Shown here: piece by piece, positions 21,695 to 27,238 of the stretch
Numbering within the stretch: position 1 is the first letter of the stretch
Layout: every line of letters begins with the position of its first letter
Virus record (IMG/VR): IMGVR_UViG_3300044796_000664
Span: 1-60,293 of that record
Origin: a virus
Lineage: Duplodnaviria; Caudoviricetes
Reading direction: 5' to 3' (one strand)
DNA length: 60,293 nt
Translations under genes and position numbers: made by a program
The notes under the pieces: generated by a model
The model's input: only the letters and a program-made list of their open reading frames with translations
Database searches by the model: none
Told to the model about the DNA's origin: nothing

Positions 21695-24388
21695 TCAGCC
21701 CGCCCTGAACGGGCTGGCTTCATTCGAGCGCCAGCCGCCCCGCGCCGCCGCATGAACGGCGTTCGCCACATGGGTGGCGTGGTCCTTCAACGCCTTCCTG
21801 AACTCGGCGGGCGACATTCCAGAGGGCCCTCCATGGACGTTGAAGTCGCCGAAGTTGAAGACGTGGCCACCGCCGCCGCCGGAGCCGAAGCCACCTCCCC
21901 GAGCAGCGAGAGCCATCAGATCCCGATTATCGCCGGCGGGGATGACCCGCTCGCCCGCGTGGATCTGGGCGATCATGTCATTGGGGACGTAGTTCGTGCC
22001 GACGTCGAGTGAGGCCAAGGCCCCATAGGCCAGCGCCGCCTCCGACATGGCCGCGCCGAAGGCGGGCGCGCCCAGGTCCAACGGGAAAGGCGCGGCTGCC
22101 ATTGATGCTACCCCTCCAGCGCCGGCAAGCCCCGCCATGGTCGATACCTGGGTGATCGCCAGGGCTTTCTGAGTGGCCGCCGCCGTCGCCGAGGCGGTCG
22201 CGTCGCTCGCCACCTTCTGCGTATTGAACAGCGCATGGATGGAAGCCATCACGGTGTGTTCCATCAGCCATTTCGACACCATCCCCGCGACGGTGTTGAC
22301 GAAGCTGCCGAGCATCTTCTGCCCGATTCCCGCCATGACCTGACCGAAGTTCTTGGCTCCCTCGGCCATCTGAAGCAGTCCCTGGCCGAAGTCCTGCACC
22401 AAGGGCGTGATGGTCTTGTCCCACTGCGCCTTGACCTGCTGAGCGGCCTGCTGTTCGGCGCTGAGGATTTTCTTGTCCGCCGCGGCGTTGGCCGCGACCT
22501 TGGCCGCCTCCATCTGGGCGAAGGCGTCTGTTTCGTCCTTAAGGGCGGCGTTGATTTGGGCGGCCGTGGCCTCTCCGGAACTGATGATCTTTCGATCGGC
22601 CAGGGTCCGGTCGGCATAGATCTGGTCCGCCGCCTCGATGGCGGCCTGGCGCTCCTGTTCGTAGAGCGCCTTCTTCTGGACGAACGCCTGCCGGGCGCTG
22701 ATCACCCCTTCCTTTTCCGCCCGATCGACGGCGGCGACCTGTTCCTCGAGCGAGTCCTGCCTAGCCTTGGCCGCGGTTTCGTCCGCCTTCACCGCGGCAT
22801 CGGACGTGCGCTTGTAGCCGGCAAAGAGGTCGTTGAAGAATGCTTGCGCGGCCCTCCGGCCGTCCGCCAGGAACTTGTCGAAGCCGGCGAGGGCCTTGTC
22901 GCTCCCGCCCAGACTCAGGCCGCCGCCGGCGCCGGAACCAGCGCCTTTCTTGCCCGCATCGGCGCCGGTCGTGCCGGTCCCTTCCTTAGGCAGGGGCGCG
23001 CCCTGAGCTTGGCTCCAGAGCTTCTTTTCCCATGCCAGATAGGCGCTGGCGTCACTGTCGGCCGACAGCCATTCATCCTGGCCCTGCTTCCAGGCCGCCG
23101 CCGCGTCCGCGCCCATCCGCTTGGCGGTGTCCACCACATCGGCCGCGACCCGCTGCGCGCCGGACGTGATGTCGCCCTCGATGGCTCCCCAATTCAGCGT
23201 AAGCGCGTCCCTGGTCACGTCGCCGAAGGTCCTGAAGGCGTCTCCCATCGTCTTGCAGCCGCCGACGACGAGATCGATCAGCGGATCCAGTACGGCATTA
23301 ACCCCCCAGATCGCGCCGTCGATCGTCTTGAACACGAAGTCGACGATCAGCCCGAGGAAGGCGAACAAGTCGGCCAGCGCCTTCACGGCCGTGCCGAGGG
23401 CGTCCATCTGATCCTTGGCCGCGCCGCCCTCCTTGTAGGACTGCACGAAGGCCCCGGTCATGTCGTTGAGGCCAGAGGTGACGTCCTTGAAGGCCGGCGC
23501 CAGGGTGTCCGTCAGGACGTTCCCCAGGCCCATCATGGCGACCTTGTTTTCCTTCTGAGCCTCCGCCAGCGCGATCCCTTTGGACGCGGCCTCCTGGTTG
23601 ACCGCGCCGTACTTTTCGATCTCGTCGTTGGCCTCGGCGATCTGCTCCTTGGTCAGGCCCAGCAGCGGGCCGATTTCCTGGATATTGCGGCCGAACATGG
23701 CCATCGCGGCGGCGATCTTGGCGGGCCCGGCCTCCATGTTCGCCAAGCCCGCAAGGGCCGCACTCAGCAGCTGCGTCTGCGTATAGGCGCCATTGACGTC
23801 GATTCCGGCGGCCTTGAAGGCGTTGGCCGCCTGGGCGCTTCCTTGCTTGGCCGCCGCGAAGCTACGGTCGACCCGCATCATGGCGGTCGATAGCGCATCC
23901 CCAGACACGCCGAACAGGGTGGCCTGGGCGTTCATCTTCTGGACTTCGCCGACGGTCAGCCCGAAGGTCTCGGCGGTCTTGAGCGACTTTTCCGCCGTTT
24001 CGCCCAGTTTGGACGCAAACTCGGCCAGTTCCCTGACCGCGAAGGCCGCGGCAATGGCCTGGCCAAGACCGGCGACGCTCTCGCGCAGGGCGCTGATCTG
24101 CTCGACGTCAGCCTTGAGTCCGGCGAACGGCGAGCTGCCCTTGCTGTCCGCCGCCAGCTTCTTCATCTCGACGTCGAGCGCGGCGATCTGGGCGCGAGCC
24201 TTGACCGTCGCCTCGGCGGCCTTCTGCATTTCCGCGCGCAGTTCGTCGGTCATGCCGCTGGTGCGGGCGGTCTTGGCGAAGCTGTTCAGATCCGCCGTGG
24301 CGGCCTTCAACTCCGACGACAGGACGGCGCGCTTCGACACCAGGTCGGCGACGTCGGCGGTGATGCTGACCGAGATCGAGTTCGCCAT
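21695..24388 (-). CDS. Tape measure protein
   Basis: 897-aa Ala-rich helical protein; C-terminal GTNYVPNDMIAQIHAGERVIP; position. Confidence 0.9.
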   Translation of the reverse strand: MANSISVSITADVADLVSKRAVLSSELKAATADLNSFAKTARTSGMTDELRAEMQKAAEATVKARAQIAALDVEMKKLAADSKGSSPFAGLKADVEQISALRESVAGLGQAIAAAFAVRELAEFASKLGETAEKSLKTAETFGLTVGEVQKMNAQATLFGVSGDALSTAMMRVDRSFAAAKQGSAQAANAFKAAGIDVNGAYTQTQLLSAALAGLANMEAGPAKIAAAMAMFGRNIQEIGPLLGLTKEQIAEANDEIEKYGAVNQEAASKGIALAEAQKENKVAMMGLGNVLTDTLAPAFKDVTSGLNDMTGAFVQSYKEGGAAKDQMDALGTAVKALADLFAFLGLIVDFVFKTIDGAIWGVNAVLDPLIDLVVGGCKTMGDAFRTFGDVTRDALTLNWGAIEGDITSGAQRVAADVVDTAKRMGADAAAAWKQGQDEWLSADSDASAYLAWEKKLWSQAQGAPLPKEGTGTTGADAGKKGAGSGAGGGLSLGGSDKALAGFDKFLADGRRAAQAFFNDLFAGYKRTSDAAVKADETAAKARQDSLEEQVAAVDRAEKEGVISARQAFVQKKALYEQERQAAIEAADQIYADRTLADRKIISSGEATAAQINAALKDETDAFAQMEAAKVAANAAADKKILSAEQQAAQQVKAQWDKTITPLVQDFGQGLLQMAEGAKNFGQVMAGIGQKMLGSFVNTVAGMVSKWLMEHTVMASIHALFNTQKVASDATASATAAATQKALAITQVSTMAGLAGAGGVASMAAAPFPLDLGAPAFGAAMSEAALAYGALASLDVGTNYVPNDMIAQIHAGERVIPAGDNRDLMALAARGGGFGSGGGGGHVFNFGDFNVHGGPSGMSPAEFRKALKDHATHVANAVHAAARGGWRSNEASPFRAG

Positions 24389-24406
24389 TCTCGGCTCCTA
24401 AAGTGT

Positions 24407-24432
24407 GAAGGGCGGCCCGAAGACCGCCCTTC
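24407..24432 (-). terminator. Hairpin closing the pentamer array transcript
   Basis: GAAGGGCGG-TCTTCGGG-CCGCCCTTC. Confidence 0.65.
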
Positions 24433-24434
24433 TT

Positions 24435-24572
24435 CAGCCTAGCGCTGCCGCGCCACGCCTCGCCGCGCCGTGCCATGACGAGCCATGGCCTGCCATGCGT
24501 TGCCTTGCCTGCCGCACCTGGCCTGGCCTCGCGCCGCCGTGCCAAGCCATGCCTTGTCTTGCCTCGCCTGCC
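24435..24572 (-). ncRNA. Putative guide-RNA array: two GGCA-initiated runs of 11 and 15 GGC-NN pentamers
   Basis: Strict 5-nt periodicity over 138 nt (4+55+4+75); flanked by hairpins; directly downstream of the RAMP operon. Confidence 0.8.
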
Positions 24573-24602
24573 ATGTTTTTCCCGGTTGAGGACGGGAAGA
24601 GC

Positions 24603-25085
24603 CTAGTCGGCGGCCTCAGGAGGGCCTTGGTCGATCATCGAGAAGACGCGACCGAGCTCGACTAGCTCCGCGTGACGTTGCCGCCACGCCTCCAACTCGG
24701 CCCAGGCCCTGGCGATGACCTGGCGCCGAAGTTCAATGCTGCTCATGGCGGTGGCGACCGAGGCGTATCCCCGCTCGCCGCCGCTCTCAACGCTGACATA
24801 GGCCCGGATCGGCTTGGCCGGCTCGACGTTCGAGCGGCTGATGTCGATGGTCAGGCTGCGGACCAGTTCGCGGGCCTGATCCTTGCGGTACTCGCCGGCG
24901 GCGACGGAATCGTCCCATTCGAAGTGACCGTGCAGCGCCGACGCCGCGTTCTTCGCGGACACCACGATCGTCTCGGGCTCCAGCAGCCCGTTGTGCCGCT
25001 TCTCCAGCCGCGCAAGCGCCTCGCCGGCCTTCTGAGCGTCTAGCTCGACCCGCGAGCCGGGACGCCAGCCATATCTCACCGGCAT
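24603..25085 (-). CDS. RAMP-associated partner protein (160 aa)
   Basis: LHGHFEWDDSVAAGEYRKDQARELVRS; overlaps the RAMP gene end. Confidence 0.8.
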   Translation of the reverse strand: MPVRYGWRPGSRVELDAQKAGEALARLEKRHNGLLEPETIVVSAKNAASALHGHFEWDDSVAAGEYRKDQARELVRSLTIDISRSNVEPAKPIRAYVSVESGGERGYASVATAMSSIELRRQVIARAWAELEAWRQRHAELVELGRVFSMIDQGPPEAAD

Positions 25086-25723
25086 GGCATCGCCTCCCCG
25101 GTGCGGGCGACGTGGAAGCGACCGGAGACACCGTCCTTTTCGGGCCTCCATTCGCCGACGCCGACGCCGAAGCCGCCGGCCTCGAACAGGCTCAGCACCT
25201 GCTCGGCGGAAAGGACGTTGGCGTTGAACTGCACCCGGAGGATCGCGCCCCAGGGCTTGAACTCGCCGCGGTGGCGGATGTCCGCCGTCCCCATGCCAAC
25301 GCGAACCATGTCCTCGCGCATCGCCGGCGGCGGACCGAGGATTTCGACCATCTCGTCGGCGATGTGGAAGCACTGGCGCGCCAGGACCTTAGTCAGGCTG
25401 CCGATGGTGGTGACAGCGGTGATTGCCGAAGCCTTGAACGCCACGGCCGGGAAGCCGAAGCGGCCGTTCTCGACGTCGTCCTCCGTCGGCCTGTCGGGCA
25501 GACCGTCGAGCCAGTAGAGGCTTTCGCAGAAGTCCTGCCACGGGTCCTTGGCGGTCTTACCGGCCGTGGCCTTCTTCATCTGTTTGGCTAGCATCTGCTC
25601 GCGCGCCTTGCGGCTCCAGGCGTGAACGATAAGGGGACCATCGCCGATGATCGGAACCTCGACCGTCTGGATATTCAGCGGCGGAAGCTCAATGGATGTG
25701 GTGGCGGATTTCGCGGCCATCAC
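25076..25723 (-). CDS. Stand-alone Cas7-like RAMP-superfamily protein
   Basis: beta1 VEVPIIGDGPLIVH; FGFPAVAFKASA resembles the Cas7/Csm3 iPgsslKG motif; C-terminal Gly-loop GGFGVGVGEWRPEKDGVSGRF. Confidence 0.75.
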   Translation of the reverse strand: MMAAKSATTSIELPPLNIQTVEVPIIGDGPLIVHAWSRKAREQMLAKQMKKATAGKTAKDPWQDFCESLYWLDGLPDRPTEDDVENGRFGFPAVAFKASAITAVTTIGSLTKVLARQCFHIADEMVEILGPPPAMREDMVRVGMGTADIRHRGEFKPWGAILRVQFNANVLSAEQVLSLFEAGGFGVGVGEWRPEKDGVSGRFHVARTGEAMPCR

Positions 25724-26178
25724 CCCGTCACTCCGAGCCGGCGGCGCGCCTCAGGCCACTCGTCCGGCATGCGTCGCCAGTCGGCGCCGAGTTCGCTTGC
25801 CGGAACGCCGGTGGACTGCTCGAGCAACTCCAGCATCGCGCTGGTTACCCGCGCATAGCGGCGGCGTTGGCGACCGTATTCGGGCTCGTCGGGCTCGAGC
25901 TGGCACAGGTCGTCGGCGATGCCCGAAAGCACGATCACCCCGACCATGATCCCCACCAGGCTCTTCGGCGTCGAGAATGAAATCGTCTCATCGATGGCGC
26001 GCAGACGGTCAACAATCTCGTTTTCCACCCGACGGAGGCGGAGGTACTCGTTGCTATCCTCTCTGAGCGATCGACGGGCCAATTCGATCTCGTTTTGCGC
26101 GCGGTCGACGGCGGAATACTCATGGCCGGCTTTTTCAAACGGACAGTCGGCGCTAGACTGCGGGGCAGCTTCGGCCAT
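25720..26178 (-). CDS. Hypothetical protein, first gene of the RAMP cassette
   Basis: AAGGAG RBS; 152 aa; GTGA overlap with the RAMP gene. Confidence 0.65.
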   Translation of the reverse strand: MAEAAPQSSADCPFEKAGHEYSAVDRAQNEIELARRSLREDSNEYLRLRRVENEIVDRLRAIDETISFSTPKSLVGIMVGVIVLSGIADDLCQLEPDEPEYGRQRRRYARVTSAMLELLEQSTGVPASELGADWRRMPDEWPEARRRLGVTG

Positions 26179-26249
26179 TGCGATCTCCTTGGGATCGTGG
26201 GTCTGAGTTAGGGGCGGTTGAGCGTTCCAGCGCTCTTCCGCCCTGTTTT

Positions 26250-26279
26250 GTCGTACACGAATGCGTTGCTGCCTGTCAA
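26250..26279 (-). promoter_or_regulatory. Putative sigma70 promoter of the RAMP cassette
   Basis: TTGACA-N18-TACGAC on the minus strand, back to back with the RHH gene. Confidence 0.45.
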
Positions 26280-26300
26280 CTCCCGTGTTACAGGAAAGTG

Positions 26301-26471
26301 ATGAAACGCCCCAGACCCGTGAAGCTCGCCCAGTTGGTCCAGCTCCGACTGACCGAAGAGATGGCGTCGGCGATTGACGACTGGCGGCGGACGCAAGCCG
26401 ACCTTCCCACGCGCTCAGAGGCGATCCGGCGTCTTTTGGCAGATGCACTTTCGCAGGCGCTTGGCAATTAG
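26301..26471 (+). CDS. Ribbon-helix-helix (CopG/Arc-like) regulator
   Basis: VQLRLTEEMASAIDDWRR...PTRSEAIRRLL. Confidence 0.8.
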   Translation: MKRPRPVKLAQLVQLRLTEEMASAIDDWRRTQADLPTRSEAIRRLLADALSQALGN

Positions 26472-26513
26472 GCCACCGCCGCCTGGGCGCCATCAACAGG
26501 CGCGCCGGCCTCC

Positions 26514-26807
26514 TCAATCCGTCACGTCGGGCAGCGGGCTTTCCCAGATCCCCTCTTCGGCCCCGGCGGCGCCGCGAACGGCGTTCGCGCTCATGGGCGG
26601 CGACCACCACTCCCGGGCGGCGAAATAGCTCGCCAGGAACCGGTCGGCCGGAGGCTCCTCGATGAGCTGGCGCTCCATTTCCGCGTGGAGCGCCCAGGTG
26701 AGGCTGCTCCACCAGTAATCCCGCGTGTGGCCGAAGTACCGGCAGGCGCGCAGGACAATCCCTTCCCAGTTGGGTTCGGGGCCTAGGCCGCCCCCGCGGC
26801 CTCCCCC
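26514..26807 (-). CDS. Tail assembly chaperone -1 frameshift extension (gpGT-like)
   Basis: Open -1 frame (PNWEGIVLRACRYFGHT...DVTD) after slippery G GGG GAG at 26801-26807. Confidence 0.65.
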   Translation of the reverse strand, partial: GGGRGGGLGPEPNWEGIVLRACRYFGHTRDYWWSSLTWALHAEMERQLIEEPPADRFLASYFAAREWWSPPMSANAVRGAAGAEEGIWESPLPDVTD

Positions 26808-27238
26808 GACGGATCGGCCTCGCCGGCGCCGTCGTTGATGAAGACGAACAAACCGGACTGGCGGCGAACCACCAGCCAGGCCGTCTGGCGTTCAGTCTCC
26901 GTCGTGCGCCAGGACTCGAATTCCTCTCGGCTCAGGGACGGATGAGCCGCCGACAGCGCGACGAACAGCACCTCCATCACCAGCCGATCGCAATCCTCGT
27001 TTGACAGGGCGTTGAAGACCTCGGCCATCGCGCCGAGGTGCCGGGTCCAGCGCGCGACGACGTCTTCGCCCTCGACCACGTCCAGGGCGGCGATGGCCGT
27101 GCTGAGGCGGCCGTTCAACTCGATCAACTGACCGCGGCACTTGCGCAGGTCGCGCCAGACCAGCTCCGGAATCGGCCATTCCTTGCCGGCCAGGACGGCG
27201 CGGGGAACTTCCGGATCGAGAGAGGCGGGTTCAGTCAT
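26783..27238 (-). CDS. Tail assembly chaperone (gpG-like)
   Basis: Between major tail protein and TMP; ends at a slippery site. Confidence 0.75.
   Translation of the reverse strand: MTEPASLDPEVPRAVLAGKEWPIPELVWRDLRKCRGQLIELNGRLSTAIAALDVVEGEDVVARWTRHLGAMAEVFNALSNEDCDRLVMEVLFVALSAAHPSLSREEFESWRTTETERQTAWLVVRRQSGLFVFINDGAGEADPSGEAAGAA

What the first reader, a model, noticed from the sequence alone, without database searches (positions are those of the whole stretch)
24435..24513. Array segment 2 decodes to the TMP N-terminus, and the host prophage differs by Ser codon-family swaps
The NN series AA AA AT AG AT TC AT AC GC GA GT GC (AG TA TG) translates as N/K-N/K-I-S-I-S-I-T-A-D-V-A. The adjacent TMP begins M-A-N-S-I-S-V-S-I-T-A-D-V-A (AAC TCG ATC TCG GTC AGC ATC ACC GCC GAC GTC GCC, 24382-24347). 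Eight of the first 12 dinucleotides match, the last six consecutively (17/24 nt). Two mismatches are synonymous Ser swaps (guide AG vs own TCG; guide TC vs own AGC), one of the few silent changes able to evade a guide that reads codon positions 1-2. Inference: the array targets TMP genes of related competing phages while the carrier has recoded itself for self/non-self discrimination. Both guides point to the gene flanking the cassette, which may hint at how guides are acquired or at homing-like spread.
Basis: partly seen in the sequence, partly recalled or inferred. Interest (0 to 1): 0.95.

Follow-up and report, generated by a model that had tools for sequence, protein, structure and literature searches.

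The report
VIPR guide array aimed at tape-measure genes
The five-base repeat array is the guide-RNA array of a VIPR system, a recently described phage weapon that reads the first two bases of each codon, and its second guide fits the start of the tape-measure gene of related phages better than that of its own prophage.

Summary
Read on the minus strand, 24509-24450 is twelve GGC-NN units. Their NN series matches codons 3-14 of the adjacent tape-measure gene (TMP) at 8/12, the best hit in the whole window. A shuffled guide reached 8 or more anywhere in 4 of 1000 trials, and in the first 20 TMP codons in 0 of 2000.

The element is a VIPR locus (Viral Interference Programmable Repeat, three 2026 bioRxiv preprints). 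It comprises vipr (25076-25723, a minimal RAMP with a profile hit to PDB 36pp 'SUSP1 Vipr protein'), an accessory vap gene (24603-25085), and a 'staggered' array of two vrRNAs. The published rule is NN pairs, with every third, wobble, base skipped.

Related phages carry TMP alleles that fit the guide at 11/12 (one contig) and 10/12 (five contigs), above the published 80% criterion. The carrier's own allele scores 67%, and two of its four mismatches are Ser codon-family differences.

Self-avoidance through six-fold codons recurs in other carriers: 8 of 11 conserved Leu/Arg/Ser positions are swapped (P about 0.003, small sample). 'The carrier recoded itself' and 'guide acquisition or homing' are not shown. 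This is a new member of a known kind.

The parts
25076..25723 (-). vipr gene (215 aa), the RAMP-fold guide-binding protein
   Evidence: phrog_4652. A profile of 6 homologues hits PDB 36pp_D 'SUSP1 Vipr protein' at E 1.3e-5, aligning GVGEWRPE with GVGDWRPR and PLIVHAW with PFLSHAD. The AF2 model has pLDDT 88.8. Foldseek top PDB hits are Cas7-type RAMPs (type VII Cas7, Csm3, Cmr6), E from 9e-5.
24603..25085 (-). vap (vipr-accessory protein) gene, 160 aa; its start overlaps the vipr stop
   Evidence: phrog_15946. A homologue is present in 124 of 133 vipr loci (tblastn). The AF2 model has pLDDT 90.7 but no significant PDB fold match. Which of vap1-6 it is could not be determined.
24568..24572 (-). 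leading GGCAG unit, whose last G is shared with the first unit of vrRNA1
   Evidence: Sequence read. The same GGCAGGC junction starts every segment in relatives. It fits the legend of fig. S18 of 10.64898/2026.04.26.720920, 'staggered arrays, 1 nt overlapping'.
24514..24568 (-). vrRNA1 guide region, 11 GGY-NN units (NN = GA AA AA AT TT AC GG GA CA CA GC), followed by terminal GGCAG at 24513-24509
   Evidence: Parsed. Its best window-wide match is in-frame TMP codons 638-648, 8/11.
24450..24509 (-). vrRNA2 guide region, 12 units (NN = AA AA AT AG AT TC AT AC GC GA GT GC): the finding
   Evidence: Hits TMP starts of relatives at 10-11/12.
24410..24449 (-). terminal GGCAG unit (24449-24445), conserved 3' motif CGCTAGGCTGAAGAA, and GC-rich hairpin GGGCGG-TCTTCGGG-CCGCCC (24429-24410)
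   Evidence: The same hairpin sequence occurs in L012 and L014, and a hairpin with a clear T-run in L015. The terminator scan did not call it because the T-run is weak. A role as terminator or vrRNA 3' tail is inferred.
21695..24388 (-). tape-measure protein gene (897 aa), immediately downstream of the VIPR cassette
   Evidence: PHROG tape-measure families phrog_8125, phrog_2854 and phrog_2276. Downstream genes are DUF2460 and the phiJL001 Gp84-like hub.
24347..24382 (-). own TMP codons 3-14 (NSISVSITADVA): sub-threshold self site of vrRNA2, 8/12
22445..22477 (-). own TMP codons 638-648 (DKKILSAEQQA): sub-threshold self site of vrRNA1, 8/11
24252..24290 (+). site matched 10/13 by the single vrRNA of the rival contig L168 (antisense to TMP codons 33-45; the skipped base is not at the wobble position)
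   Evidence: the only site in the window with 8 or more of 13; 0 of 1000 shuffled guides reached 10.
25292..25315 (-). vipr codons 137-144 (EDMVRVGM), matched 8/8 by the first vrRNA of locus L120

Best explanation
The array at 24445-24572 (minus strand) is the 'staggered' vrRNA array of a VIPR system carried by this provirus, and it is probably read as follows.

Inferred from gene order and a conserved hairpin: it is transcribed with vipr and vap.

Known from the SUSP1 and P. fulva systems, not tested here:
- Vipr protomers coat the RNA, one per five-base unit.
- Each protomer hides the GGY triplet and exposes the NN pair.
- The NN pairs bind double-stranded DNA while every third target base is skipped.
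- The resulting R-loop triplex blocks transcription.

Shown here by sequence: vrRNA2 spells positions 1-2 of N-N-I-S-I-S-I-T-A-D-V-A. Its predicted targets are the first codons of the tape-measure gene of related, competing phages, where it fits at 83-92%.

Inferred: silencing the TMP and the tail genes behind it would stop a rival from making tails.

Shown: the carrier's own TMP fits only 67% (vrRNA2) and 73% (vrRNA1), below the 80% criterion used in the literature. Part of that shortfall comes from Ser codons of the other codon family.

Inferred: these mismatches keep the carrier safe from its own guides.
For: (1) Identity of the system.
- vipr gives a profile hit to the solved SUSP1 Vipr protein that includes the G-loop [DE]-W-R.
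- Its AF2 model has the RAMP/Cas7 fold.
- The vipr-vap-array architecture recurs widely. 114 of 134 sequences (the window plus 133 loci found with vipr) have a same-strand GGC period-5 chain scoring 12 or more in my parser. vap is present in 124 of 133 loci.
- The array pattern is unique in the window: 12 pattern matches against 0.26 expected.

(2) The code.
- In an all-against-all search of 545 array segments against the collected loci with a 3-nt step, there were 110 hits of score 8 or more, against 2.4 per shuffled set.
- 25 of the 545 guides have a hit with at least 8 matches and at least 80% identity.
- Hits include conserved motifs inside other loci's vap (GLIR[AS]VVAIY, 10/10) and vipr (EDMVRVGM, 8/8). 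The preprints also report guides against other VIPR systems.

(3) This guide.
- The own TMP site is the single best hit in the window.
- Natural TMP alleles fit at 11/12 (L152=L168=L172) and 10/12 (L027, L155, L157, L161, L166).

(4) Reciprocity. L168, which has its own VIPR directly upstream of its TMP, carries a guide that fits the window's TMP 10/13.

(5) Mechanism, taken from the preprints: the 1-nt skip rule, wobble alignment, repression, action on either strand, and no self hits at 80% or more.
Against: - One metatranscriptome run held only two short identical contigs, in the TMP and in vap, and none over the array.
- No natural allele with a perfect 12/12 match was found in metagenome contigs.
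- No relative with a better site for vrRNA1 was found.
- The 80% threshold is a bioinformatic convention of the authors, not a measured binding limit for this clade.
- In SUSP1 the R-loop appears to grow from the 3' end of the vrRNA. The six 3'-most units of vrRNA2 match the carrier's own TMP perfectly, so some self-binding cannot be excluded.
- Whether the phages with matching alleles share a host with this provirus is unknown.
Confidence: 0.8

Rival explanations
1. Autoregulation. The partial matches of both vrRNAs to the carrier's own TMP are functional. The VIPR complex binds its own TMP gene weakly and damps or times expression of the late tail operon, rather than, or in addition to, attacking rivals.
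For: Both guides have their best window-wide match in the gene next to the cassette. L027's second guide likewise fits its own TMP at 8 of 9 locally and 8/12 overall. The six 3'-proximal units of vrRNA2 match the own gene perfectly, and in SUSP1 R-loop formation starts near the 3' end.
Against: The guide fits foreign alleles better than its own (11/12 and 10/12 against 8/12). In the two clades and two types where the authors searched each guide against its own contig, they found no self hit at 80% or more. Across 545 segments, own-locus matches are only weakly enriched: 16 scored 6 or more, against 4 in the reversed control. In other carriers the own gene avoids the guide through synonymous codon-family swaps, which suggests self-binding is selected against.
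Confidence: 0.1
2. Relic. The guides were inherited or transferred with the cassette and reflect past rivals. Their resemblance to the own TMP is only shared ancestry of TMP genes, and they have no present target or self-avoidance role.
For: No 12/12 allele was found and no good target for vrRNA1. The AGC Ser allele at position 6 also occurs in relatives with little or no GGY periodicity upstream of the site. Minor codon families are not enriched at targeted columns of vipr and vap in the population.
Against: Six sampled contigs carry alleles at or above 80% identity. One of them aims a guide back at this TMP. Swapped six-fold codons in carriers exceed expectation (8 of 11 against 3.9 expected, P 0.003).
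Confidence: 0.08
3. Chance or coding artefact. The five-base periodicity is a degenerate microsatellite or a small ORF (ATG 24574 to TGA 24434, 46 codons), and the resemblance to the TMP is coincidence.
For: The region is open in one minus-strand frame (my reading).
Against: That frame is interrupted by stops in L012 and L015 (my reading of the arrays printed). Shuffle controls reject chance. The array always accompanies vipr.
Confidence: 0.02

Closest known systems
VIPR systems (Viral Interference Programmable Repeat): SUSP1 and Pseudomonas fulva prophage, 'type II' (bioRxiv 10.64898/2026.04.26.720920, 10.64898/2026.04.26.720927, 10.64898/2026.10.15.759431)
   Same: - A small RAMP-fold Vipr protein with the G-loop [DE]-W-R.
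- An adjacent vap gene.
- Guide RNAs made of GGY-NN pentamers, 9-16 per guide.
- Targets read with one base skipped, aligned on the wobble position.
- Targets in rival mobile elements, including other VIPR loci.
- No self hit at 80% or more.
- A phage or prophage carrier.
   Different: - Sequence identity to SUSP1 Vipr is low. Only the C-terminal 66 residues align significantly, and tblastn did not reach SUSP1.
- The array is of the 'staggered' kind, with a shared G at GGCAG|GC junctions and no pseudoknot tail per guide. The preprint mentions this kind only in a figure legend.
- The predicted target here is a structural gene (the TMP start) of related phages, not a satellite recombinase or lysis-lysogeny regulators.
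- The cassette sits directly upstream of the carrier's own homologue of the target.
- The VIPR type (I-VII) could not be assigned, because the figures and supplements were not available.
Class 1 CRISPR backbone proteins (Cas7 family: Csm3, Cmr4/6, type VII Cas7)
   Same: The RRM/RAMP fold is shared: these are the top Foldseek matches, E 9e-5 to 1e-3. Both are protein filaments on a guide RNA with periodic base flipping.
   Different: There are no CRISPR repeats, and no Cas1/Cas2 or other cas genes in the window region. The period is 5 nt on the guide and 3 nt on the target, instead of 6 and 6. TM-scores are only about 0.4-0.47.

Membership tests
VIPR system | Vipr protein: a minimal RAMP (RRM core, glycine-rich loop, thumb) of about 20 kDa | tested here: met
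   215 aa. The profile hits PDB 36pp_D 'SUSP1 Vipr protein' at E 1.3e-5, with the G-loop GVG[DE]WRP aligned. The AF2 model (pLDDT 88.8) matches Cas7-type RAMPs best.
VIPR system | vrRNA: tandem pentamers with a conserved GGY and hypervariable NN, 9-16 units per guide, next to vipr | tested here: met
   27 units in the parser chain, read as 11 and 12 guide units plus terminal and 3' units. The pattern occurs only here in the window. NN varies between relatives while GGC is kept.
VIPR system | Targets follow the 1-nt skip rule, mostly wobble-aligned in coding sequence, at 80% or more NN identity, and not in the carrier itself | tested here: met
   vrRNA2 fits in-frame TMP codons 3-14 of six other contigs at 83-92%. 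Own sites are at 67% and 73%. The rule holds family-wide against shuffles.
VIPR system | An accessory vap gene beside vipr | tested here: inconclusive
   A conserved 160-aa gene follows vipr here and a homologue is present in 124 of 133 loci. It has no Pfam, NCBIfam or PADLOC hit and no significant fold match. I could not compare it with vap1-6 because the supplements were closed.
VIPR system | The vrRNA is expressed, processed and bound by Vipr, and the complex represses the target | not testable with these tools
   Only contigs of one metatranscriptome were available, with none over the array.
VIPR system | A conserved structured 3' tail capping the guide (a pseudoknot in the SUSP1 clade) | tested here: inconclusive
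   Each guide ends in a GGCAG unit. The array ends in a conserved CGCTAGGCT motif plus a GC-rich hairpin shared with relatives. I did no pseudoknot analysis. The 'staggered' class may lack per-guide tails.
CRISPR-Cas | A repeat-spacer array with contiguous spacers and cas adaptation genes | tested here: not met
   The array has a 5-nt period with 2 variable bases per unit. No cas families were found among the 10 ORFs scanned around it, nor among the four scanned against NCBIfam and PADLOC.

The most novel reading that the evidence does not exclude
The wobble-skipping VIPR code has one synonymous loophole, the six-fold-degenerate amino acids (Ser TCN/AGY, Leu CTN/TTR, Arg CGN/AGR), and phages use it.

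- Carriers keep their own TMP, vipr and vap genes out of reach of their own guides by using the other codon family at conserved Ser, Leu or Arg positions. The window's TMP does this at two Ser positions. L147's vap does it at Leu, Arg and Ser at once.
- Guides of both families circulate for the same residue. At vipr Arg141, L120's guide reads CG and L130's reads AG. That would be the trace of an arms race.
- The preprints say that escape needs amino-acid changes. This would be an exception.

A bolder extension is that VIPR cassettes sit beside the gene family they target (three contigs carry one directly upstream of the TMP). This might reflect how guides arise or spread.
Probability: 0.35. 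Interest if true: 0.65.

Novelty: new member of a known kind. Interest (0 to 1): 0.4.

Why it matters
It places a Caulobacterales-like provirus in the newly described VIPR family (host inferred from the closest vipr relatives). It also gives a concrete natural target pair: a guide against the first codons of a rival's tape-measure gene, with a guide pointing back. Structural-gene targeting, the 'staggered' array form and self-avoidance are only touched on in the parts of the preprints I read. The six-fold-codon loophole is testable. If real, it qualifies the claim that VIPR cannot be escaped synonymously, and it would matter for using VIPR as a programmable repressor. The same cassette occurs in cultured Mycobacterium, Gordonia and cyanobacterial phages, where such tests are feasible.

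Tried and rejected
Database searches that gave nothing.
- Rfam found no family in the window.
- Pfam, NCBIfam and PADLOC gave nothing for vipr, vap or the two ORFs upstream of vipr.
- The terminator and promoter scan called nothing at the array.

Ideas held before the system was identified, then dropped once the PDB hit and the preprints explained it.
- A small ORF across the array. The frame is not conserved in relatives (my reading).
- A TRAP-like triplet-binding RNA, G-quadruplex loops, or quintuplet decoding. These came from memory and were never tested.

Tests that were weak or negative.
- General own-locus targeting: 16 of 545 segments scored 6 or more, against 4 in a reversed-sequence control.
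- Population-level enrichment of minor codon families at targeted columns of vipr and vap: not seen. The targeted columns are at 12-14%, inside the background range of 0-28%.
- A perfect 12/12 TMP allele: 0 in metagenome contigs. With R at the two Ile/Val positions, only L172 was found, which is the same contig as L152.
- Targets for vrRNA1: 0 in viral contigs with a relaxed pattern.
- A single-sequence search for TMP relatives found only 3 loci.
- The fold search for vap had a best E of 0.5, with only weak winged-helix-like rows.

RNA evidence.
- Four runs were listed. The one RNA run held identical short contigs at 24300-24335 and 24677-24767, and none over the array.
- DNA can be present in such libraries, so this says nothing about vrRNA expression.

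Tools not used or unavailable.
- Supplements of the preprints were not opened. Their tables of loci, types and targets may already list this clade or its targets, and may treat codon families.
- My statement that six-fold codons are not discussed rests only on these term searches:
  - October preprint: serine, leucine, arginine, six-fold, sixfold, 'codon famil', recod.
  - Discovery preprint: serine; leucine, arginine, six-fold, sixfold, degenera, codon.
  - The structural preprint was not searched for these terms.
- Three later literature searches failed by time-out. No search beyond one search checked for further VIPR papers.

Full report
WHAT IS THERE

All genes around the finding lie on the minus strand.
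- A 897-aa ORF (21695-24388) matches PHROG tape-measure families. It is followed by DUF2460 and a phiJL001-Gp84-like hub. This is the tail module of a provirus, and the window is a whole IMG/VR provirus record.
- Upstream of the tape-measure gene (TMP) lie, in order: a GC-rich hairpin (24429-24410), a run of five-base units (24572-24435), a 160-aa gene (24603-25085, phrog_15946) and a 215-aa gene (25076-25723, phrog_4652).

THE OBSERVATION

The TMP starts M-A-N-S-I-S-V-S-I-T-A-D-V-A. From codon 3, 8 of 12 dinucleotides equal codon positions 1-2, the last six in a row, and 17 of 24 bases agree.
- Scanned over both strands of the window with a 3-nt step, this is the single best site. The next best is one 7/12.
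- Shuffling the order of the NN pairs gave 8 or more anywhere in the window in 4 of 1000 trials, and in the first 20 TMP codons in 0 of 2000.
- The first segment behaves alike. Its best hit in the window is in-frame TMP codon 638, at 8/11. Shuffles reached 8 or more anywhere in the window in 1 of 1000.

WHAT IT IS

Relatives of the 160-aa gene in viral contigs carry the same kind of array right after the gene in 5 of 6 loci, whatever gene follows.

A profile of the 215-aa protein found 316 relatives in viral contigs, of which the best 80 were kept, and 53 in species genomes. By the record titles these come from Alphaproteobacteria, Planctomycetota, Firmicutes, Actinobacteria, Acidobacteria, spirochaetes and others.
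- In 114 of 134 sequences (the window plus 133 loci), my parser found a same-strand GGC period-5 chain scoring 12 or more. Chain lengths ran from 11 to more than 220 units.
- These chains are built of segments of about 8-13 units, joined by a four-base unit (GGCA|GGC).
- The 160-aa gene is present in 124 of 133 loci.

The profile of the 215-aa protein hits one solved structure, PDB 36pp 'SUSP1 Vipr protein', at E 1.3e-5. The alignment pairs GVGEWRPE with GVGDWRPR and PLIVHAW with PFLSHAD. Its AF2 model (pLDDT 88.8) matches Cas7-type RAMPs best.

The name led to three 2026 bioRxiv preprints.
- From 10.64898/2026.04.26.720920 I read Results, Discussion and one Methods section, and ran term searches.
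- From 10.64898/2026.04.26.720927 I read Results.
- From 10.64898/2026.10.15.759431 I read two sections and ran term searches.

They describe VIPR systems as follows.
- A small RAMP protein, Vipr, coats a guide RNA made of GGY-NN pentamers.
- It hides the GGY and pairs the NN with DNA, while every third target base, usually the wobble base, is skipped.
- The complex represses transcription on either strand.
- Natural targets are rival phages, satellites and other VIPR loci.
- The authors kept hits at 80% or more NN identity as targets. In the two clades and two types where they searched each guide against its own contig, they found no self hit at that level.
- A figure legend describes 'staggered' arrays, in which neighbouring vrRNAs overlap by one base.

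That legend fits the GGCAG|GC junctions here. In the window the layout is:
- leader unit at 24572-24568;
- vrRNA1 guide at 24568-24514 (11 units);
- terminal unit at 24513-24509;
- vrRNA2 guide at 24509-24450 (12 units);
- terminal unit at 24449-24445;
- then CGCTAGGCT and the hairpin.

INDEPENDENT CHECK OF THE CODE

Before finding the preprints, I searched 545 array segments against all collected loci, seeding on five consecutive dinucleotide matches at a 3-nt step.
- Hits of score 8 or more numbered 110, against 2.4 per shuffled set.
- 25 of 545 guides have a hit with at least 8 matches at 80% or more.
- The strongest spell GLIR[AS]VVAIY, a motif inside other loci's vap genes (guides of L068 and L147), and EDMVRVGM, a motif of vipr (guide of L120, 56 loci).
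- The L120 guide also matches the window's own vipr, at 25315-25292.

THE TARGET OF vrRNA2

A pattern for I-T-A-D-V-A-D-L found 19 distinct alleles in the collected contigs. The pattern fixes the last six guide units, so every allele scores at least 6.

| Fit to guide | Alleles |
|---|---|
| 11/12 | L152=L168=L172 (NNISVS, with AGC and TCG at the two Ser) |
| 10/12 | L027=L012 (NNVSVS, AGC and TCC); L155, L157, L161, L166 (NNIAVS) |
| 9/12 | seven alleles |
| 8/12 | the window and L154 |
| 7/12 | two alleles |
| 6/12 | two alleles, not at a gene start |

L150 and L151 (a Q variant of the motif) reach 8/12. The carrier is thus near the bottom among its TMP homologues. Six contigs exceed the 80% criterion.

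L168 has its own, different VIPR directly upstream of its TMP. Its single guide fits the window's TMP at 24252-24290 (plus strand) with 10/13, and 0 of 1000 shuffles reached 10. The skipped base there is not the wobble base.

SELF AGAINST NON-SELF

Of the carrier's four mismatches to vrRNA2:
- two are Ser codons of the other family (TCG against AG, and AGC against TC);
- one is Asn to Ser;
- one is Ile against Val.

Whether the carrier changed to escape cannot be told. AGC at position 6 also occurs in L154, L159 and L169, which show little or no GGY periodicity in the 400 nt upstream of the site. The common residue at position 4 is Ala (GCN), one substitution from TCG.

The pattern does recur in other carriers.
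- L147's own vap reads GGG TTA ATC AGG AGC where its own guide reads GG CT AT CG TC. All three six-fold residues are swapped.
- L068's vap has TTG against guide CT.
- L120's vipr has AGG against guide CG.
- L130's guide reads AG at that same Arg, and its own vipr has CGC.

The other family is in the minority in the population. In the vap motif it is TTR 5 of 36, AGR 7 of 34 and AGY 5 of 14. At the vipr Arg it is AGR 12 of 78.

I counted all positions where the guide and the own protein agree on Ser, Leu or Arg. The count includes L086, whose own homologue fell below the 50% identity cut used for the tally.
- 8 of 11 are swapped: L147 x3, L068, L120, L130, and the window x2.
- 3 are not swapped: L027 x2 and L086.
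- 3.9 swaps are expected from those frequencies, giving a Poisson-binomial P of 0.003.

Caveats apply. The sample is small. The guides of L068 and L147 are homologous, so they are not independent. I set the background probabilities by hand. Minor families are not enriched at the targeted columns across the population.

I found no mention of six-fold codons by term search in two of the preprints. The October preprint states that escape requires changing amino-acid-determining positions.

HOW IT MOST LIKELY WORKS

- Shown here: the gene order, the array, the code, the better fit to foreign TMP alleles, and the sub-threshold fit to self.
- Taken from the preprints for other VIPR clades: the Vipr filament, the R-loop triplex, and transcriptional silencing.
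- Inferred: the prophage expresses vipr, vap and the two vrRNAs. A related phage that enters or is induced in the same cell has its TMP start bound, and its tail operon is silenced. The carrier's own TMP escapes because four of the twelve units do not pair.

In SUSP1 the R-loop seems to grow from the 3' end, and the six 3'-most units match self. A weak self-effect therefore remains possible, and I keep it as a rival at 0.1.

WHAT IS NOT SHOWN

- Expression of the array. One search gives nothing over it.
- The VIPR type.
- The role of vap. Its confident model has no significant fold match.
- Host overlap with the phages that carry matching alleles.
- Any link between the cassette's position and guide origin.

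VERDICT

Its central reading, a guide that reads codon positions 1-2 and is aimed at rivals' tape-measure genes with self spared, is supported and coincides with a mechanism published in 2026. The locus is a new member of a known kind. The six-fold-codon loophole is the only part that may go beyond what I could find in print.

Noticed in passing
L009 2008-2274 (Mycobacterium phage Gorge, NC_051664.1) and L010 2689-2929 (Cyanophage Cy-LDV1, BK059895.1): Cultured or named phages carry the same vipr-vap pair with a staggered GGC-NN array, here upstream of the genes. In Gorge the array overlaps the annotated CDS gp53, and vipr plus vap lie under one annotated CDS, gp54. In the phage collection, vipr and vap each hit 33 records: 27 Mycobacterium and 5 Gordonia phages for both, plus the cyanophage (vap search) or Pseudomonas phage LESphi2 (vipr search).
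   Followed up: partly
window 25292-25315 (-): The first vrRNA of L120 (a Sphingomonas soli contig) has 8 units spelling EDMVRVGM. It matches the window's own vipr gene 8/8, and 56 loci in all. L120's own vipr differs there (Arg AGG, Ile, Leu).
   Followed up: partly
window 24252-24290 (+): The single vrRNA of contig L168 fits the antisense strand of the window's TMP 10/13, so the two phages appear to aim at each other's TMP. The skipped base is not at the wobble position. L168 itself carries the best target of the window's vrRNA2 and has a different VIPR directly upstream of its TMP.
   Followed up: partly
L034 1816-2899; L041 7058-8010; L129 11080-11669: Some arrays are very long: 221, 196 and 120 units, that is up to about 1.1 kb and about twenty guides.
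   Followed up: no
L068 11190-11320 and L147 11175-11300: In this subgroup the first guide (against vap) is separated from the rest of the array by a conserved non-repeat stretch containing a hairpin (GCCGGATGcccATCCGGC in L147). It may be a processing or tail element.
   Followed up: no
L130 10643-11049, L123 10656-10875, L143: Gene order varies. In some Firmicutes and Actinobacteria loci the array lies between vipr and vap, and in L143 vap precedes vipr.
   Followed up: no
window 25720-26712 (-) and 26783-27238 (-): Two ORFs upstream of vipr (330 and 151 aa) have no hit in Pfam, PHROGs, NCBIfam or PADLOC. The genes upstream of vipr differ between relatives, so the mobile unit appears to be vipr, vap and the array only.
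   Followed up: partly
window 24300-25800: Near-identical DNA (0.98 of sampled words) is held by one peat-metagenome run that may be the source. Three other peat runs hold only small parts.
   Followed up: partly
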